Source of the DNA: an uncultured virus (IMG/VR IMGVR_UViG_2100351003_000006)
Lineage: Duplodnaviria > Heunggongvirae > Uroviricota > Caudoviricetes
Strand: one strand, 5' to 3'
DNA length: 6,146 bases
Virus record (IMG/VR): IMGVR_UViG_2100351003_000006
Part shown: in pieces, positions 1-6,146 of the stretch
Position numbering within the stretch: position 1 is the first letter of the stretch
How the letters are laid out: every line of letters begins with the position of its first letter
The notes under the pieces: model-generated
Databases searched by the model: none
Seen by the model: the letters and a program-made list of their open reading frames with translations, nothing else
What the model was told of the DNA's origin: nothing
Program-made: the position numbers and the translations under genes

Positions 1-96
1 CCGGCTTCCGGCCGCTTGCAGGCAGATGTCGTGTTTCGCATCGGCCCAGTCGATGCCGATGAAGGCGGCGAATTCTGGGTTGGGTTCAGGAGTCAT
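1..96 (-). CDS. IS110-family DEDD recombinase/transposase, N-terminal 32 codons (runs off the window edge)
   Basis: Manual translation from ATG at 96-94 gives MTPEPNPEFAAFIGIDWADAKHDICLQAAGSR. The FIGIDWA..KHD motif is the typical first strand and catalytic Asp of the RuvC-like DEDD domain of IS110 proteins. A strong SD (GGAGGT, 109-104) lies 7 nt upstream. Confidence 0.92.
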   Translation of the reverse strand, partial: MTPEPNPEFAAFIGIDWADAKHDICLQAAGSR

Positions 97-103
97 AGTT
101 CAC

Positions 104-126
104 ACCTCCAAGTGCTAGAGTGGAGG
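104..126 (-). promoter_or_regulatory. Shine-Dalgarno of the IS110 recombinase within a hairpin
   Basis: CCTCCA (105-110) and TGGAGG (121-126) form a perfect 6-bp inverted repeat with a 10-nt loop. One arm is the GGAGG SD on the minus strand. Confidence 0.6.
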
Positions 127-145
127 AACGGGACGTGCCTGCCTG

Positions 146-286
146 GGCGCTGCGAAAGCAATATAGAGAGTCGATGAAGCGACAATCCCTGAGTATTCGT
201 TATCGCGCTCAAGCGCACCCGCGGATTCGAAACCAAACTGGTGAACATCGAATGTTTGCGTGGAATTATTCGTAATCCGCGGCTGC
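146..286 (-). ncRNA. Bridge RNA core: target-binding loop (~286-215) followed by donor-binding loop (~210-146); the full transcript may start near 531
   Basis: Minus-strand RNA, TBL: CCGCGGAUU-A-CGAA [UAAUUCCACGCA] AACAU-UCG-AUGUU [CACCAGUUUGGU] UUCG-AAUCCGCGG. DBL: GCGA [UAACGAAUACUCA] GGGA-UU-GUCG-CUUCAU-CGAC-UCUC [UAUAUUGCUU] UCGC. Both left guides end in CA and both right guides contain UG followed by 2 nt and UUCG. One guide of each loop matches the junction. Confidence 0.82.
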
Positions 287-410
287 ATGTCCCGCTTTCA
301 CCGACAGCTACCTGCCGGCTGTAGTTAGACTACCGAAAGCGGAACCACCGCATGTGGGCCCGGCAAGGGGGCGACCACGCCATGCGTGCCCTTCAAAAAG
401 CCAATGCTGG

Positions 411-440
411 CGTCTTGTCGGCGTGCTCGCCGACAAGACG
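411..440. repeat. Perfect 13-bp inverted repeat (hairpin) inside the IS110 non-coding end
   Basis: CGTCTTGTCGGCG (411-423), TGCT loop, CGCCGACAAGACG (428-440). Confidence 0.9.
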
Positions 441-537
441 GTCGGCTCGCCTGCTGGCTCGCTCGACCATGCTTTTAGAATAAATTGAAGAGCATGTCTG
501 GCAGTTGCCTCTGGCCCTGCTCACACTTGGTTGAGTA

Positions 538-543
538 ACTATA
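538..543 (-). promoter_or_regulatory. Putative -10 box (TATAGT) of the IS110 circle-junction promoter
   Basis: TATAGT lies 1 nt inside the predicted core and points toward the RNA and recombinase. The flank supplies only AGAACA at the -35 position. IS110 elements are known to assemble a promoter across the right-end/left-end junction after excision. Confidence 0.6.
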
Positions 544-978
544 TTGCGTGGAATACACATTGTTCTGCGGGGTTTTTCGTTTATACCTGTTGACCTCGTT
601 ACCCCACAAATGTCAGTTTTTGCCGATTTTGGCGTCTTACGGGCCATTTCTCTCGAAACCTCGTGACTTCGCGATTTTAGTGCAGAACTTTTAAGCCTTT
701 GTTTTTGCTGTTCTTTTAGGGACGACCGAACGGGAGTTTTCCGACGTTCGTCTTGGTTCAGACAGATACGCCAACGCGAAATTTCTGGTTGGTGACGGTT
801 TGCCAAGGGCAAGTGAAGGTGGCTGCCCAGCGTCAATAACTATCTCTATCAGGCACTTACGCCCCCCCCGTTGGCCTCTTGAGCCAATACTACGGCGCAG
901 TTTCAACATTCTCGCAGCCCAACGCTTTCATCCGTTCGCTTGCGCGCGTGAAGCGTCGCATCGCCAGTATGCAATATA

Positions 979-1847: not shown

Positions 1848-2849
1848 TTGCGCATCAACCACGCCGCGCAAATCTGCGCGCTTTCGTCGTCAGAACTTGA
1901 AGACTTCGTCAACGACTGGCTCGCCCAGCGTTGCAAGGACTACTACGGCCACGAGCTATGGCGTGGCACGGGTGACATGGGCCGCGATGTGACAGGGTAC
2001 GTCACCGACCGCAGTATGGAAGGTCCATGGGACAACTTCCAGTGCAAGCAGCTCAGCTCTAAGCTCTCCGAGGCGTCAGCCTTCATCGAGCTAGGCAAGA
2101 TATTCAAGCATTCGGCCGACGGCGCGTTCTCACTTCCACGCGCCTACACCTATGTCGCGCCGCTCGGCGTTGTTCGGAATGTGCGGCACTTCGTCGCACA
2201 TCCCGAGCAGTTTAGGCAGGCCTTCCTGGACCGATGGGACAGTGTCATCGCTGGGGATCTCGTAGAGAATCAGGTCGTGAAGTTGACCTCCGAGATCGAG
2301 GCCAAAATTCGAGCGTTTGAATTCACGCGGGTGAACTGGCTAGACGCCAATCGCCTCGTCAACGATCCCGCATGCAAAGCGGCTCTGGTGGCATGGTTTG
2401 GCGCCGACCCGGGACTCTGGCCTAGGGGCGTCGTGCCAGACGAAATTCAGGCCAGCGAGTCCTCCTACATCGGCCAGCTCCTCAAGATCTACGGGGAAAA
2501 GGGGCCGGGGACCTATCCGGACGCGGCTGCGGCGCTCGCATCTCCAGAGTTCGGCCCTCACCTGCGTGCCCAGCGCACCCGTTTCTTCGATTCAGTGGCC
2601 TTTGATCGCTATTACCGCGATTCAACGCCCAAAGAGTACCTAAATTATTTCAAGGATGAGATCTACCATGGTGTTCTCGACGTACACAATGGGGAGTACG
2701 CGGGCCGCTTCACACGGCTCAGTCAGGTAATGCAACACGCGGCTATCCTTCAGGCGTCCGGAGTACTAGGCAAACACGCAGGCCCACAGGTCAAGCAAGG
2801 CACCTGCCACCAGTTTGCAAACGAAGGGCTGCTGCCGTGGGATCGCTAG
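1848..2849 (+). CDS. lmuA: Lamassu / ABC-3C effector: N-terminal Mrr-like PD-(D/E)xK nuclease plus ABC-3C C-terminal domain (CTD6-like)
   Basis: 333 aa, TTG start with SD. Nuclease motifs ELEDFV, GDMGRDV and FQCK (QxK variant). C-terminal QRTRFF and KQGTCHQFANEGLLPW are typical of ABC-3C CTDs. It sits upstream of a middle component and an ABC ATPase. Confidence 0.85.
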   Translation: MRINHAAQICALSSSELEDFVNDWLAQRCKDYYGHELWRGTGDMGRDVTGYVTDRSMEGPWDNFQCKQLSSKLSEASAFIELGKIFKHSADGAFSLPRAYTYVAPLGVVRNVRHFVAHPEQFRQAFLDRWDSVIAGDLVENQVVKLTSEIEAKIRAFEFTRVNWLDANRLVNDPACKAALVAWFGADPGLWPRGVVPDEIQASESSYIGQLLKIYGEKGPGTYPDAAAALASPEFGPHLRAQRTRFFDSVAFDRYYRDSTPKEYLNYFKDEIYHGVLDVHNGEYAGRFTRLSQVMQHAAILQASGVLGKHAGPQVKQGTCHQFANEGLLPWDR

Positions 2850-3352
2850 AGCGCAATGCATGGGGCTCGCACCCGTTCAACAGCACACTAGAGACCGGAA
2901 TCCGTGCGCTGGTGCTGCTGGAGGCCTTCTATCCGCGGCGCTGTGATCTGCTGGAGATGACTTGGCTCGACCATCTAATCGTCCACACCGGCGACCTCGA
3001 CGGCCAAGATGTGCCGGAAAGCTTGCATCCGGATTTACCCAACCGCGCCGGGGAGTTGCTCGTGCGCCGCCAACTGGTCGAGAAAAGCTTGCGCCTGATG
3101 CAGCAAGTGCATCTCGTCGACGTGTTCGAAACTGAGGAGGGTATTACGTTCGGTGCCAGCGAAGACGCGCCGAGCTACCTGGATCTCCTGCAGGCGCCGT
3201 ATTCCCTTGCCCTCAAGGAACGCGCCAAGTGGATGGCCAACCGCTTCGCGGGCATGCAAACCGCCGAGATGCGAGCGCTGATCGAGAGCCGCATCGGACG
3301 CTGGACCGCTGACTTCCGGGTAGAAGAGCTGCCAACGGGGCTTCAAAAATGA
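2837..3352 (+). CDS. lmuC: Lamassu / ABC-3C middle component (MC2-like)
   Basis: 171 aa, GTG start overlapping the lmuA end by 13 nt. Motifs PFNSTLETGIRALVLL, LDHLIVHTGD, ESLHP and ELLVRRQLVEKSL. Typical size and position. Confidence 0.82.
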   Translation: MGSLERNAWGSHPFNSTLETGIRALVLLEAFYPRRCDLLEMTWLDHLIVHTGDLDGQDVPESLHPDLPNRAGELLVRRQLVEKSLRLMQQVHLVDVFETEEGITFGASEDAPSYLDLLQAPYSLALKERAKWMANRFAGMQTAEMRALIESRIGRWTADFRVEELPTGLQK

Positions 3353-5214
3353 ACGGCATCCGTCTGCGTCATCTGGTCTTCACCGGCCCGAACGTCGAGC
3401 TCGCCGAGCTTGAGTTCGGCGATGGCTTGAACATTGTTTTCGGTGCCTCCAACACCGGGAAGTCATTTGCGTCGAAGGCCATTCTCTTCGCGCTGGGCGC
3501 TTCCGGGAAGCTGCCGGAGACTCAGGAGATCAAGGCTTACGACGGTATCTGGCTCGGCATCACGTTGGCCGACCAGGGCGAGTTTACGCTTTATCGGGCG
3601 ACGCGCGGCGGCCACCTCAAGCTCTTCCCAGGCCTGATCAAGGGCGCGCAAAATTCCAAAGGGGAAGTACTACGCCAAGCGCACACCTACAAGCGCACCG
3701 ACACCGTCTCGCATCGACTGCTTGAGGCTATTGGCCTGGCCAACAAGTGGGTGGTGCGCGACGGCAACGGCAAGAAAGACTCGCTGTCCATCCGTCTGCT
3801 GTCGAAGTACTTTGTGGTGGGGGAAACGGACATCATGTCCGAGACCAGTCCGGTCTATCTATCGGGCAGTCCGACAGAGCGCACGTTCGAGCAGAACCTC
3901 TTCAAGCTCCTCCTCACAGGCAGCGACGATTCGGCAGCCGTGACAGTCCCGAACGAGACGGAGCGCAAGGCCGCCAAGGCGGCGAAAATCGAGCTGGTCG
4001 ACGAGTTGCTGGCGCAACTCGACGCTGAACTCGGCGGGGAGCCAACGGATAAGAAGGAAACTGACGAGCAGCTTGAGCGACTCGATCAGAGTGCCGACGG
4101 CTTGCACGCTCGGTTGCAGAACACGCAAAACGAGCTGGATGGCCTCGTGGTCGCGCGACGTGCAAACCTTGATCGTAGCCGCGAACTGCAAGAGCGCGCC
4201 GGTGAGCTAGAGCTAACGCTGCAGCGCTTTGCCAAGCTGAAGGCGGTCTACAGCTCCGACCTGGATCGTCTACACTCCATTGAGGAAGGCGGCTACGTGC
4301 TGGTGGCCATGGTCGGACGTGACTGCCCGGTCTGTGGCGCTCCGCCCGACGCCCAGAAACACAATCACGCCGCGGATGAGATTTCTATGGCGCACACGGC
4401 CGCTACCGCCGAGGCCTCCAAGATTGAGCGCGAGCAACGAGAACTCGCGCCCGTGATCGCCTCGCTTGAGGCCGAGGCCGTCGGTCTGAGTAAGACCATC
4501 GACAAGCTAATGACCGATACCGAGAGGCTAGACGGCGCTATTCAGGGCCTCCGCCCCCAGGAAGCATCTCTACGGGAGAGCTACGAGACCTACAACTCGA
4601 AGCGCGCCGAGATCCTCAAGGTGCTCGACCTCCATCACCGGCGCGCGAAGCTGGCATCGCGGCGCGCCGAGATCGGCGCCGTTCCGACGAAGCGCGAGGG
4701 TGAGCCGGCACGGGTAGGCCTGGACTCAACGACTGCATTTGACTTCGGCGAGACGGTGAAGGCAGTGTTGAAAGCCTGGAAATTCCCCGACGCTGACAAG
4801 GTCCAGTTCGATGGGAAGGCCAACGACATTACTGTCGGAGGCAAATCCCGTGCTGCCAATGGCAAGGGGGTCCGGGCAGTGCTCCACGCGGCTTTCAACG
4901 TCGCGGTGATTGTCCACTGCATCGACAACAACCGGCCGCATGCTGGCTTTCTAGTGCTCGACACCCCGCTGCTCACCTACCGCGAGCCGCTGAAGTCGAA
5001 GTACGGTGAGTTGTCGCAGGACGAGGCCGAGCTCAAAGCTACCTCGCTCGCGGAACACTTCTACAAGTACCTCTCGAGCCTCGCGGAGCGCGTGCAAGTC
5101 ATCGTCATCGAGAACTCGGATCCGCCCTCAGCCATTGACGGGTTGGCCCGCATCGAGACCTTCACTGGTGAGCAGGGCAATGGGCGGGCTGGGTTGCTCG
5201 CCAGGCTCGCATGA
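3349..5214 (+). CDS. lmuB: Lamassu SMC/Rad50-like ABC ATPase sensor
   Basis: 621 aa. Walker A GASNTGKS (3442-3465), heptad-rich coiled coils flanking a CPVC zinc-hook motif (4324-4335), degenerate signature ANGKGVRA, Walker B FLVLDTP (4948-4968) and VIVIEN switch strand. ATGA overlap with lmuC. Confidence 0.9.
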   Translation: MNGIRLRHLVFTGPNVELAELEFGDGLNIVFGASNTGKSFASKAILFALGASGKLPETQEIKAYDGIWLGITLADQGEFTLYRATRGGHLKLFPGLIKGAQNSKGEVLRQAHTYKRTDTVSHRLLEAIGLANKWVVRDGNGKKDSLSIRLLSKYFVVGETDIMSETSPVYLSGSPTERTFEQNLFKLLLTGSDDSAAVTVPNETERKAAKAAKIELVDELLAQLDAELGGEPTDKKETDEQLERLDQSADGLHARLQNTQNELDGLVVARRANLDRSRELQERAGELELTLQRFAKLKAVYSSDLDRLHSIEEGGYVLVAMVGRDCPVCGAPPDAQKHNHAADEISMAHTAATAEASKIEREQRELAPVIASLEAEAVGLSKTIDKLMTDTERLDGAIQGLRPQEASLRESYETYNSKRAEILKVLDLHHRRAKLASRRAEIGAVPTKREGEPARVGLDSTTAFDFGETVKAVLKAWKFPDADKVQFDGKANDITVGGKSRAANGKGVRAVLHAAFNVAVIVHCIDNNRPHAGFLVLDTPLLTYREPLKSKYGELSQDEAELKATSLAEHFYKYLSSLAERVQVIVIENSDPPSAIDGLARIETFTGEQGNGRAGLLARLA

Positions 5215-6146
5215 GCGAGCACGCGCACTCGGTCCAGGTCACCGCTGGGAATTCGCAGCTTGCCGACCTGAAGAGGTCCTGGGTCACCGCAGTGTTCAGT
5301 GTCGAGGATGGCATTGGCCCCATGGAATCGCTGCATCAGGCCGGAGACTCGATCATTGCCGTAGCGACAATGACGGATCAAGGGATCAAAGTCATCGGCA
5401 GTGGCGTGATGATCGGCCCCGGACTGATGCTGACAGCAAGCCATGTCCTCGATGAGTTTCCGCAGGAGGGCACGGGCCCCGTCTGCTTGACATTCCTTCC
5501 GGGGGCAACTCGCGCGTGGCTGCCATGCGGAAGGACGACGTTGACTGGTGCCAGCTCATTTGCTCCCAACCGTCGCAAAGTGTCCGACCTGACATTGATG
5601 AGCTGCAGTCTTAACTCCGAGGCCCACGAAGAATTTCCTATTGTTCTGGCGCCAATTCAACTGGCACTGCCATTGATCGGCGAACGGCTGTGGGCCTTCG
5701 GGTACCGCCATGGCGACATTCTGGACGGCGCAGCCTTGCTTACGCCACTGGTCACCTCCGGCGTCGTGACCGGCTGCTATCCGCAGGGCCGTGGTGAGCG
5801 CATGCCATCCACCTGCATCGAAGTTGAAATGGATACCATGGGCGGCATGAGCGGCGGACCCGTCGTTAACGATGATGGCTGGCTTGTGGGCATCGTTTCG
5901 TCGTCGTTCGAAGGCGGACCAACCTACGTCACGCTCGTCTGGGATGCAATTCGCATCTCGGTCGGAGAGGCTCCGAAGAACCTATGGCCAGGCGGCGCGG
6001 CGGATCTCATGATCGGACGAGACTTGGGCCTTGTAAAGCTCAAGGGCGCCGTAACGCGGGACGCAGAAGGCAACGTGACGCTCACCATGTCGGATCCGGA
6101 GATGGAGCAACTGGCGACGTTCAGTGATCCGATACACATTACCTGA
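5211..6146 (+). CDS. Trypsin-like (S1 / Trypsin_2) serine protease, stand-alone, likely cytoplasmic
   Basis: 311 aa. GSGVMI, His motif LTASHV (His 5442-5444), Asp motif SDLTLM (Asp 5586-5588) and Ser motif GMSGGPV...LVGIVS (Ser 5850-5852). No hydrophobic signal peptide is visible. ATGA overlap with the lmuB stop. Confidence 0.9.
   Translation: MSEHAHSVQVTAGNSQLADLKRSWVTAVFSVEDGIGPMESLHQAGDSIIAVATMTDQGIKVIGSGVMIGPGLMLTASHVLDEFPQEGTGPVCLTFLPGATRAWLPCGRTTLTGASSFAPNRRKVSDLTLMSCSLNSEAHEEFPIVLAPIQLALPLIGERLWAFGYRHGDILDGAALLTPLVTSGVVTGCYPQGRGERMPSTCIEVEMDTMGGMSGGPVVNDDGWLVGIVSSSFEGGPTYVTLVWDAIRISVGEAPKNLWPGGAADLMIGRDLGLVKLKGAVTRDAEGNVTLTMSDPEMEQLATFSDPIHIT

What the first reader, a model, noticed from the sequence alone, without database searches (positions are those of the whole stretch)
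146..554. A readable IS110 bridge RNA: all four guides and a CA core can be inferred from the sequence
Seen: two stem/internal-loop/stem units with parallel layout on the minus strand upstream of an IS110 recombinase. The first loop's left strand AUUCCACGCA (266-257) is identical to minus-strand 554-545. The second loop's right strand UAUAUUG (165-159) is complementary to CAATATA (546-540). The junction therefore reads ATTCCACG-CA-ATATAG, i.e. left target, core, right donor. Known: IS110 recombinases such as IS621 (core CT) use a bispecific RNA with a target-binding loop followed by a donor-binding loop. Inferred: target ATTCCACG-CA-AACTGG (right guide 241-234) and donor GAATACT-CA-ATATAG (left guide 198-190). 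This is a candidate programmable bridge recombinase with a CA core. Whether this element is already catalogued cannot be judged here.
Basis: partly seen in the sequence, partly recalled or inferred. Interest (0 to 1): 0.9.

Follow-up and report, generated by a model that had tools for sequence, protein, structure and literature searches.

The report
IS110 bridge RNA targeting IS21 ends

Summary
Window 342-141 (minus strand) encodes a 5' stem-loop and two stem/internal-loop/hairpin modules upstream of an IS110 recombinase. An 11-nt loop segment (266-256) is identical to the left flank (554-544). A 9-nt segment (166-158) is complementary to the element's left end.

I recovered the window's own contig (L101). 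It holds an intact 425-aa recombinase, a 93-aa passenger ORF and the right end.

Sixty-three homologous loci show stem covariation. Their target loops covary with their own flanks (0 of 2000 permutations for both left and right guides).

That site occurs 7 times uninterrupted in related genomes.

The left donor guide is wrong. It is CUCAGGG (193-187), not GAAUACUCA, which lies in the conserved ACGAAUA motif that flanks both loops (its CGAA closes each).

The predicted right junction therefore fails. It reads CTCAGGGCGT-AA-ACTGG.

The dinucleotide shared by both junctions is AA (545-544). CA is found only at the left junction.

The target is the 23-bp terminal repeat of an IS21-family element in Accumulibacter-type sludge bacteria.

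Verdict: new member of a known kind.

The parts
546..559 (-). Left target: the outermost half of terminal repeat unit 1 of an IS21-family element (TGTGTATTCCACGC). LT proper is 554-546.
   Evidence: sequence; the same words head 23-bp tandem arrays in inverted orientation about 2.9 kb apart. IstA/IstB lie between the arrays; the rest of the unit follows the right end.
544..545 (-). Crossover ('core') dinucleotide AA, found at both junctions.
   Evidence: left junction ...CACGC-AA-TATAG, right junction ...GGGCGT-AA-ACTGG; core guides are AA/UU in most of the family.
532..543 (-). Left end of the element (right donor, TATAGTTACTCA). TATAGT (543-538) is a -10-like hexamer.
   Evidence: the constant part of all copies starts at TATAG. 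By hand: joined to the right end it gives TTGACG, 17 nt, TATAGT.
343..531 (-). About 185-nt leader that most relatives lack. It holds a roughly 30-nt palindrome around 440-411.
   Evidence: TATAG lies 322 nt before the anchor here, against 131-140 in most relatives; self-inverted 30-nt hit.
292..342 (-). 5' branched stem-loop of the bridge RNA.
   Evidence: helices 1-3: 14 of 17 pairs have compensatory changes.
215..286 (-). Target-binding loop module. Outer stem 286-269 / 231-215. LTG AUUCCACGC 266-258 plus AA 257-256. Inner hairpin 256-244. RTG CCAGU 241-237 plus UU 236-235. Handshake-position GG 234-233.
   Evidence: structure. (11/11 with the flank). (RT AAACTGG is 7/7 complementary). (covariation with flanks).
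141..214 (-). Donor-binding loop module. Outer stem 214-205 / 150-141. ACGAAUA 200-194. LDG CUCAGGG 193-187. Three variable nt 186-184. Inner hairpin 183-170. RDG CUAUA 166-162 plus UU 161-160. Handshake-position GC 159-158.
   Evidence: structure. (RDG against the left end). (right end CTCAGGG, 7/7 with the LDG).
105..109 (-). Shine-Dalgarno-like GGAGG.
   Evidence: read by eye.
1..96 (-). First 32 codons of the IS110-family recombinase (contains GIDWAD, the first catalytic Asp). The ORF runs off the window.
   Evidence: Full 425-aa ORF at L101 2972-4249(-): NF033542 at 156.6 bits (cut-off 140).

Best explanation
Window 545 down to 1, continuing 1,571 bases beyond the window start in its own contig, is a 2,116-bp IS110-group insertion sequence. 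Its left non-coding end encodes a bridge RNA.

By analogy with IS621, the excised circle joins the right end (...TTGACG...CTCAGGGCGT-AA) to the left end (TATAGT...). This creates a sigma-70 promoter (TTGACG, 17 nt, TATAGT) that transcribes the leader, the bridge RNA and the recombinase.

The donor loop holds the circle junction. [quoted passage not shown]

The target loop holds the target. [quoted passage not shown]

The DEDD/Ser recombinase exchanges strands at the shared AA.

The natural target is the 23-bp repeat (ATTCCACG[N]CAAACTGGACAGT) that forms the terminal arrays of an IS21-family element, so the element lives inside another insertion sequence.

Shown here: the RNA structure and its covariation, the guide/flank matches and their covariation, both junctions, empty sites and the intact recombinase. 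Inferred: transcription, circle formation, the promoter and catalysis.
For: Own contig: the window equals L101 4154-10299 at 100% identity. The right end was read. The recombinase is intact at 425 aa and passes the NCBIfam equivalog 'IS110 family RNA-guided transposase' (156.6 bits, cut-off 140). Pfam DEDD_Tnp_IS110 (7e-24) and Transposase_20 (6e-14) hit the 99%-identical L059 copy.

A family profile finds ISCro4 (2.6e-10) and IS621 (1.2e-9) in the PDB. D16, E67, D108, D111 and S324 are invariant in 24 of 24 family proteins.

Structure: 54 pairs, 26 compensatory, 0 of 500 shuffles as good.

Guides and flanks: LTG+core matches 11/11. RTG+core matches 7/7 with AAACTGG and LDG 7/7 with CTCAGGG. 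RDG matches 9 nt.

Family covariation. LT against own LTG averages 7.44 of 9, compared with 4.58 for non-cognate pairs, with 0 of 2000 permutations as high (54 distinct of 58 loci with a left-end call, out of 63). RT against own RTG averages 5.21 of 7 compared with 2.74, with 0 of 2000 (34 distinct of 38).

Empty sites: 33 target-like sites in 3 of 4 related genomes, against 0 for the reversed control. 7 are the exact 16-mer.

Independent insertions with different outer flanks but the same LT: window, L028, L030, L060, L015/C21 and L059.
Against: There is no direct evidence of the RNA, its ends or its activity. Rfam 15 gave no match at E <= 1. Only assembled contigs were available for public runs, and they showed no circle junction.

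The LDG is not contiguous with the core. The 3 nt between CUCAGGG and the inner hairpin (AUU) match the right end (CGT) at 1 of 3 positions.

In the wider family the dinucleotide at the left junction is variable and differs from the constant one at the right junction. The strict 'same core at both ends' rule of IS621 is therefore not met family-wide.

The homologue set was collected with a pattern that requires part of the donor loop. Invariance there is by construction, and right ends were located by the CTCAGGG motif itself.
Confidence: 0.93

Rival explanations
1. One reading: a CA core, a left donor guide GAAUACUCA and a donor GAATACT-CA-ATATAG.
For: The left junction and the empty target units do read CA at 546-545. 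GAAUACUCA lies on the 5' side of the second module.
Against: The own right end reads CTCAGGGCGT-AA-ACTGG, with T rather than C before AA and no GAATACT. The predicted junction string is absent from 6 of 6 close loci. ACGAAUA occurs in both loops of 51 aligned homologues, and its CGAA pairs with UUCG.
Confidence: 0.02
2. The structured region is only a 5' leader or attenuator of the recombinase mRNA, and the matches to the flanks are by-products of insertion (terminal repeats or a duplicated target).
For: It sits between the left end and the start codon. No RNA data show a separate RNA.
Against: The loop strands change together with the flanks across 28 distinct LTGs while the stems keep pairing. 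The element makes no target duplication that could copy 9-11 nt of flank into an internal loop 280 nt away.
Confidence: 0.03
3. The bridge RNA is real, but this copy is an inactive fossil.
For: No circle junction or joint was seen in contigs (Tried and rejected). Two 87%-related copies carry a broken recombinase gene (L060 at 217 aa, L030 with its frame changed after about 380 aa). There is an extra 185-nt leader between the junction promoter and the RNA.
Against: The own recombinase ORF is intact with all five catalytic residues. The guides match both ends and the target perfectly. Copies at 98.7-99.5% identity sit at 5 different sites in 3 genomes and further metagenome contigs.
Confidence: 0.15
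4. An IS1111-type element with a seekRNA.
For: It has the same recombinase superfamily.
Against: The RNA lies upstream of the recombinase in the left end, as in the IS110 group. The location rule for IS1111 is recalled, not tested.
Confidence: 0.01

Closest known systems
IS621 / ISCro4 bridge recombinase systems (Durrant et al. 2024, PMC11208160; Hiraizumi et al. 2024, PMC11208158; passages read)
   Same: DEDD RuvC-like domain plus Tnp domain with a catalytic Ser. The RNA is encoded in the left end. The target loop comes first and the donor loop second. The 5' loop strands are identical to the top strand of the left halves and the 3' strands are complementary to the right halves. A core is included in the guides, and two nucleotides sit 3' of the core guide in handshake position. 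The -35 is in the right end and the -10 in the left end.
   Different: The similarity is only at profile level (E about 1e-9; phmmer finds nothing). The protein is 425 aa, against 326-341. The element is 2.1 kb with a 185-nt leader and a passenger ORF. The core is AA (GA in relatives) rather than CT. LT is 9 nt. The LDG is separated from the core by 3 poorly matched nt. The target is an IS21 terminal repeat instead of a REP.
ISfinder cluster ISCfr13 / ISCps4 / ISCps5 / ISEsa2 in Supplementary Table 1 of PMC11208160 (row 373, seen)
   Same: The RuvC and Tnp domain strings of that row share long motifs with this protein (GIDWAD..., SGKQ.WVHWR..CP.F.RQTF.EWAA), judged by eye.
   Different: This was not aligned computationally, because sequence from a supplement was not typed into tools. 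Identity is unknown, and the file was cut when stored.
ISPpu9 / ISPpu10 of Pseudomonas putida (PMC12288879 and bioRxiv 10.64898/2026.03.19.712850; search listings and abstracts only)
   Same: IS110-family elements that insert into one repeated host sequence.
   Different: Those target REP or intergenic repeats. This one targets the transposase-binding-type repeats at the ends of another IS.
IS4321 / IS5075 (IS1111 group) inserting in the terminal inverted repeats of Tn21-family transposons (recalled, no call)
   Same: An IS110-superfamily element whose natural target is the end of another transposon.
   Different: A different subgroup and a different host element. Not examined here.

Membership tests
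IS110-family bridge recombinase system (IS110 group) | Recombinase with a DEDD RuvC-like domain and a Tnp domain with a catalytic Ser | tested here: met
   NF033542 at 156.6 bits (cut-off 140) on the own-contig ORF. Pfam PF01548 and PF02371. D16, E67, D108, D111 and S324 invariant in 24 of 24. These residues align to ISCro4. Only D16 lies inside the window.
IS110-family bridge recombinase system (IS110 group) | Non-coding RNA in the left end with two internal loops, each flanked by stems | tested here: met
   54 pairs, 26 compensatory, 0 of 500 shuffles as good.
IS110-family bridge recombinase system (IS110 group) | First loop matches the target: the 5' strand equals left-target top strand plus core, and the 3' strand is complementary to core plus right target | tested here: met
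   11/11 and 7/7. Covariation in homologues with 0 of 2000 permutations for each.
IS110-family bridge recombinase system (IS110 group) | Second loop matches the element's joined ends (LDG-LD, RDG-RD) | tested here: met
RDG 9 nt. The next 3 nt match at 1 of 3.
IS110-family bridge recombinase system (IS110 group) | Same core dinucleotide at both junctions and in donor and target | tested here: inconclusive
   AA is at both junctions of this element. In relatives the right junction is GA in 27 of 30, while the left junction shows 12 different dinucleotides in 38 events.
IS110-family bridge recombinase system (IS110 group) | Promoter assembled across the circle junction | tested here: inconclusive
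   TTGACG (L101 2603-2598), 17 nt, TATAGT (window 543-538), counted by hand. No circle and no transcript start was observed.
IS110-family bridge recombinase system (IS110 group) | RNA-guided recombination activity | not testable with these tools
   Needs an assay.
Rfam RNA families | Match to a curated covariance model | tested here: not met
   0 matches at E <= 1 among 4227 families. No inference follows on whether a bridge RNA model exists in that release.

The most novel reading that the evidence does not exclude
In this clade the natural junctions are asymmetric. The dinucleotide at the left junction is target-derived and nearly free: 12 different dinucleotides in 38 events, with AA the commonest at 9. 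The dinucleotide at the right junction is constant: GA in 27 of 30, and AA in this subfamily. This is what transfer of the top strand alone would leave, with no need for donor and target cores to match. It would be population-scale natural evidence for the copy-out / top-strand paste-in model proposed in two recent preprints. It would also point to a bridge recombinase with a relaxed core requirement. In addition, the element is a specialised parasite of IS21 ends.
Probability: 0.4. Interest if true: 0.55.

Novelty: new member of a known kind. Interest (0 to 1): 0.33.

Why it matters
It adds a well-documented natural bridge system from a clade far from IS621 and ISCro4. Both ends, all four guides, several independent insertions and uninterrupted target sites are in hand. 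That is the information needed to test it as a programmable recombinase with a non-CT core and longer guides.

It also shows an RNA-guided IS homing on the terminal repeats of an IS21-family element. Together with 60-odd relatives, it gives junction statistics that bear on whether one or both strands are transferred.

It is not a new principle.

Tried and rejected
- Whole genome of the window: none is held.
- Rfam scan at E <= 1: no match.
- phmmer of the single recombinase against PDB sequences: no hit at 1e-3. Only the profile found IS621 and ISCro4.
- Plasmid collection: 3 distant hits only.
- Reads: all four runs laid were assembled contigs. No joints were seen, so there is no circle junction and no excision product. 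This says nothing about activity.
- RNA libraries: 6 hold the element, and one 2,207-nt contig spans it. The tool warns that DNA can be present in such libraries, so I do not count this as transcription.
- Orthologous, uninterrupted copy of this exact chromosomal site: searching the window flank 557-1556 in four related genomes gave only short multicopy matches. The 93%-related metagenome contig L100 aligns only from window 1453 onward.
- Supplement of PMC11208160 searched for 'Accumulibacter' and for the N-terminal motif: none found. The file was cut when stored.
- Earlier findings of this scan: none.
- Core CG and a register with core TA/TG were considered. They were set aside because the left-junction base before C varies between copies and because LTG and RTG core guides agree only in the AA register.
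- Homology between the passenger ORF and the IS21 element: none.
Coordinates of the parts were therefore read by hand from the ruler.

Full report
**What is in the window.**
- On the minus strand an ORF starts at 96-94 (MTPEPNPEFAAFIGIDWADAKHDICLQAAGSR...) and runs off the window start.
- Upstream of it, positions 342-141 fold into a branched 5' stem-loop followed by two modules of the same design: outer stem, internal loop, inner hairpin. The fold gives -99.8 kcal/mol, z = -3.07, and 0 of 200 shuffles are as stable.
  - ATTCCACGCAA occurs at 266-256 and 554-544. These are the only 2 matches in the window, and 0 of 200 shuffles gave 2.
  - GCAATATAG at 547-539 is the reverse complement of 166-158. 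2 of 200 shuffles gave 2 matches.
- Rfam 15 gave no match at E <= 1.

**Getting the rest of the element.**
- No genome is held for the window.
- A translated search with the neighbouring gene (window 1848-2849) in metagenome contigs returned two contigs identical to the window. L099 starts 133 bases before the window. L101 is a 178-kb contig in which the window is positions 4154-10299 at 100% identity.
- Reading L101 on the minus strand beyond the window gives an intact 425-aa recombinase (L101 2972-4249), a 93-aa ORF (2600-2881) and the right end...CCCTTGACGACTACCTCAGGGCGT-AA-ACTGGACACC. Further 23-bp repeat units follow it.
- The element is 2,116 bp counting one copy of AA.
- The recombinase passes the NCBIfam equivalog 'IS110 family RNA-guided transposase' at 156.6 bits against a cut-off of 140. 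It is identical at 421 of 425 residues to the L059 copy, which carries Pfam DEDD_Tnp_IS110 and Transposase_20.
- A single-sequence search of the PDB finds nothing. A profile of 24 family members finds ISCro4 (2.6e-10) and IS621 (1.2e-9). D16, E67, D108, D111 and S324 are invariant in all 24.

**Relatives.**
- A pattern taken from the conserved part of the donor module found 63 loci in the species-representative genomes. They come mostly from Burkholderiales, Accumulibacter, Methylobacter and other Gammaproteobacteria.
- Four are 98.7-99.5% identical to the window over the left 550 bases: L028 and L015 (Ca. Accumulibacter phosphatis), L059 (Ca. A. meliphilus) and L062. Two are 87% identical: L030 and L060 (Ca. 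A. affinis).
- An alignment of 51 distinct sequences gives a consensus structure of 54 pairs, 26 with compensatory changes. 96.0% of cells are paired, against 29-42% when partners are slid. 0 of 500 shuffles reach any measure.
- Caveat: the collecting pattern forces invariance in part of the donor module.

**Anatomy of the loops.**
- Both loops are closed by CGAA/UUCG and begin with ACGAAUA.
- Target loop: LTG AUUCCACGC (266-258), AA (257-256), inner hairpin (256-244), RTG CCAGU (241-237), UU (236-235), GG (234-233).
- Donor loop: CUCAGGG (193-187), three variable nt, inner hairpin (183-170), CUAUA (166-162), UU (161-160), GC (159-158).
- This matches the IS621 plan read in PMC11208160 and PMC11208158. 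There the 5' strands pair with the bottom strand over 8-9 nt, the 3' strands pair with the top strand over 4-7 nt, the core is included in all four guides, and two handshake nucleotides lie 3' of the core guide.

**Do the guides fit the DNA?**
- Left junction...TGTGTATTCCACGC-AA-TATAGTTACTCA. Right junction...CTCAGGGCGT-AA-ACTGGACACC.
- LTG+AA matches 11/11. RTG+UU is complementary to AAACTGG at 7/7. CUAUA+UU+GC is complementary to GCAATATAG at 9/9. CUCAGGG equals the right end at 7/7, but the next three positions (AUU against CGT) match at only 1 of 3.
- Removing the element restores TGTGTATTCCACGCAAACTGGACACC. This is the sequence of uninterrupted ends of the host element in other genomes.
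The predicted string is absent from all 6 close loci, 4 of which contain the right end.

**Covariation with flanks.**
- I placed the left end (TATAG) in 58 of 63 loci, giving 54 distinct events and 28 distinct LTGs.
- The 9 nt upstream match the locus's own LTG at 7.44 of 9 on average. For LTGs that differ at 4 or more positions the average is 4.58. 0 of 2000 permutations were as high.
- Right ends were placed in 38 of 63 loci (34 distinct). RT matches the locus's own RTG at 5.21 of 7, against 2.74 for others, again with 0 of 2000.
- Right ends were located through the motif CTCA[GC]GG after a TTGAC-like word. The family-wide constancy of that motif is therefore partly by construction.
- The boundary is independently fixed in three ways: by the five Methylobacter luteus copies, whose flanks diverge right after CGTGA; by the homology end between L059 and L030; and by the restored IS21 end in the own contig.

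**The core.**
- CA (546-545) is found at the left junction in 6 of 6 copies of this subfamily and in the empty units. The right junction has TA at the same position in 4 of 4 copies (L059, L030, L060, L062) and in the own contig.
- Donor (CGT-AA-TAT) and target (CGC-AA-ACT) share only AA, so the crossover can be placed anywhere within it.
- In the register where the core is the two bases before TATAG, the guides agree with each other:
  - the LTG has AA in 38 of 49 distinct guide sets;
  - the RTG predicts AA in 44 of 49;
  - the donor 3' strand has UU followed by GC in 31 of 45.
- I therefore call the core AA (545-544).
- Family-wide, the right-junction dinucleotide is GA in 27 of 30 events (AA in 2, GT in 1). 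The left-junction dinucleotide takes 12 values in 38 events, with AA the commonest at 9.
- That asymmetry is what IS621's top-strand cut 3' of the core would leave if only the top strand were transferred. Two preprints whose abstracts I read propose this. This last step is inference.

**The target.**
- The pattern ATTCCAC-N(1-3)-CAAACTGG occurs 13, 14, 6 and 0 times in the four genomes that hold the close copies. The reversed control occurs 0 times.
- The sites lie in 23-bp tandem arrays of 3-4 units, in inverted orientation about 2.9 kb apart.
- Between the arrays lie IstA (NF033546, 285.7 bits) and IstB (Pfam IstB_IS21, 2e-72). The host is therefore an IS21-family element. In the own contig, IstA and IstB lie just beyond the right end.
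- Insertions occur in unit 1 (window, L028, L030, L060) and unit 3 (L015 and G001:C21).
- Outside the IS21 end, window 561-798 is itself a multicopy repeat of about 240 bp. In other copies this repeat ends in a terminator-like hairpin next to tRNA 3' ends, and here the IS21 end interrupts that hairpin.

**Promoter and expression.**
- Joining the ends by hand gives TTGACG (L101 2603-2598), 17 nt, TATAGT (window 543-538). Relatives have an 18-nt spacer.
- This subfamily has about 185 extra bases between the left end and the RNA. No minus-strand terminator was found there.
- Twenty public runs from 18 studies of sludge or wastewater hold the element, 6 of them RNA libraries.
- In four runs laid, contigs that reach L059's right junction continue into an uninterrupted repeat array. 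One contig at the left junction continues into yet another flank with the same LT.
- These are contigs. They show presence only, not transcription.

**Comparison and verdict.**
- This works like IS621 and ISCro4 and meets the sequence-testable membership criteria of the IS110 group. The relationship is distant: profile-level similarity only, 425 aa, 2.1 kb.
- Cargo-bearing and longer IS110 elements have been described (passages).
- My searches found no paper on IS110 elements in Accumulibacter (1 paper holds both words, on another subject). They found none on IS110 insertion into IS21 ends (titles and abstract openings of the 10 papers listed). That is not proof of absence, and ISfinder could not be queried.
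- A related cluster in Durrant's Supplementary Table 1 carries the ISfinder names ISCfr13, ISCps4, ISCps5 and ISEsa2. Similarity to it was judged by eye only.
- Novelty: new member of a known kind. Interest: modest.

Noticed in passing
L101 1-2580; window 546-559: The host of the insertion is an IS21-family element (IstA, IstB). Its ends are arrays of 3-4 tandem 23-bp repeats in inverted orientation. The bridge element sits in the outermost unit of the end downstream of istB.
   Followed up: yes
window 561-798: A multicopy repeat of about 240 bp (73-83% identity, several copies per related genome). In other copies it ends in a terminator-like hairpin beside the 3' end of tRNA genes. Here the IS21 end interrupts the hairpin, and the 'terminator' that one search reports at 547-569(+) is this chimera.
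   Followed up: partly
window 1848-6146 (+): An ABC-three-component (ABC-3C) conflict system. It comprises a CTD6-domain protein (1848-2849), Middle Component 2 (2837-3352), a 621-aa protein without a Pfam match (3349-5214) and a trypsin-like peptidase (5211-6146, open-ended).
   Followed up: no
L101 2600-2881 (-); L059 2259-2540 (-): A 93-aa passenger ORF lies between the recombinase stop and the right end, and is conserved in the 83-87% diverged copies. It has no hit in the Pfam or NCBIfam copies used. The protein atlas places it with 'cryptic plasmid protein A' (PF25860) clusters at 0.98, which may be its own cluster.
   Followed up: partly
L059 (both junctions) compared with L080 60-220: In L059 the left flank is unit 1 and the right flank is the end of unit 4 of the IS21 array, so 69 bp of repeats are missing next to the element. 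This could be a guide-directed deletion between the element's end and a downstream target-like unit.
   Followed up: partly
L002 about 3130, L038, L053 (and L021) just after AACGAATACTCAG: In four relatives the donor loop is interrupted directly after CUCAG. In L002, L038 and L053, from three genomes, the same foreign sequence follows. In L002 an annotated second IS110-family transposase follows. This may be another guided IS that targets this family's donor-loop DNA.
   Followed up: no
63 family loci: The left-junction dinucleotide is variable while the right-junction dinucleotide is constant across the family. See the novel case.
   Followed up: partly
window 343-531 (-): An extra leader of about 185 nt with a roughly 30-nt palindrome (about 440-411). 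Most relatives lack it. Other relatives carry different inserts at the same place (TATAG 266-371 nt before the anchor).
   Followed up: no
L079 539-2948: The interior of one IS21 copy fetched from a related genome came back as a run of N (withheld). It was not pursued.
   Followed up: no
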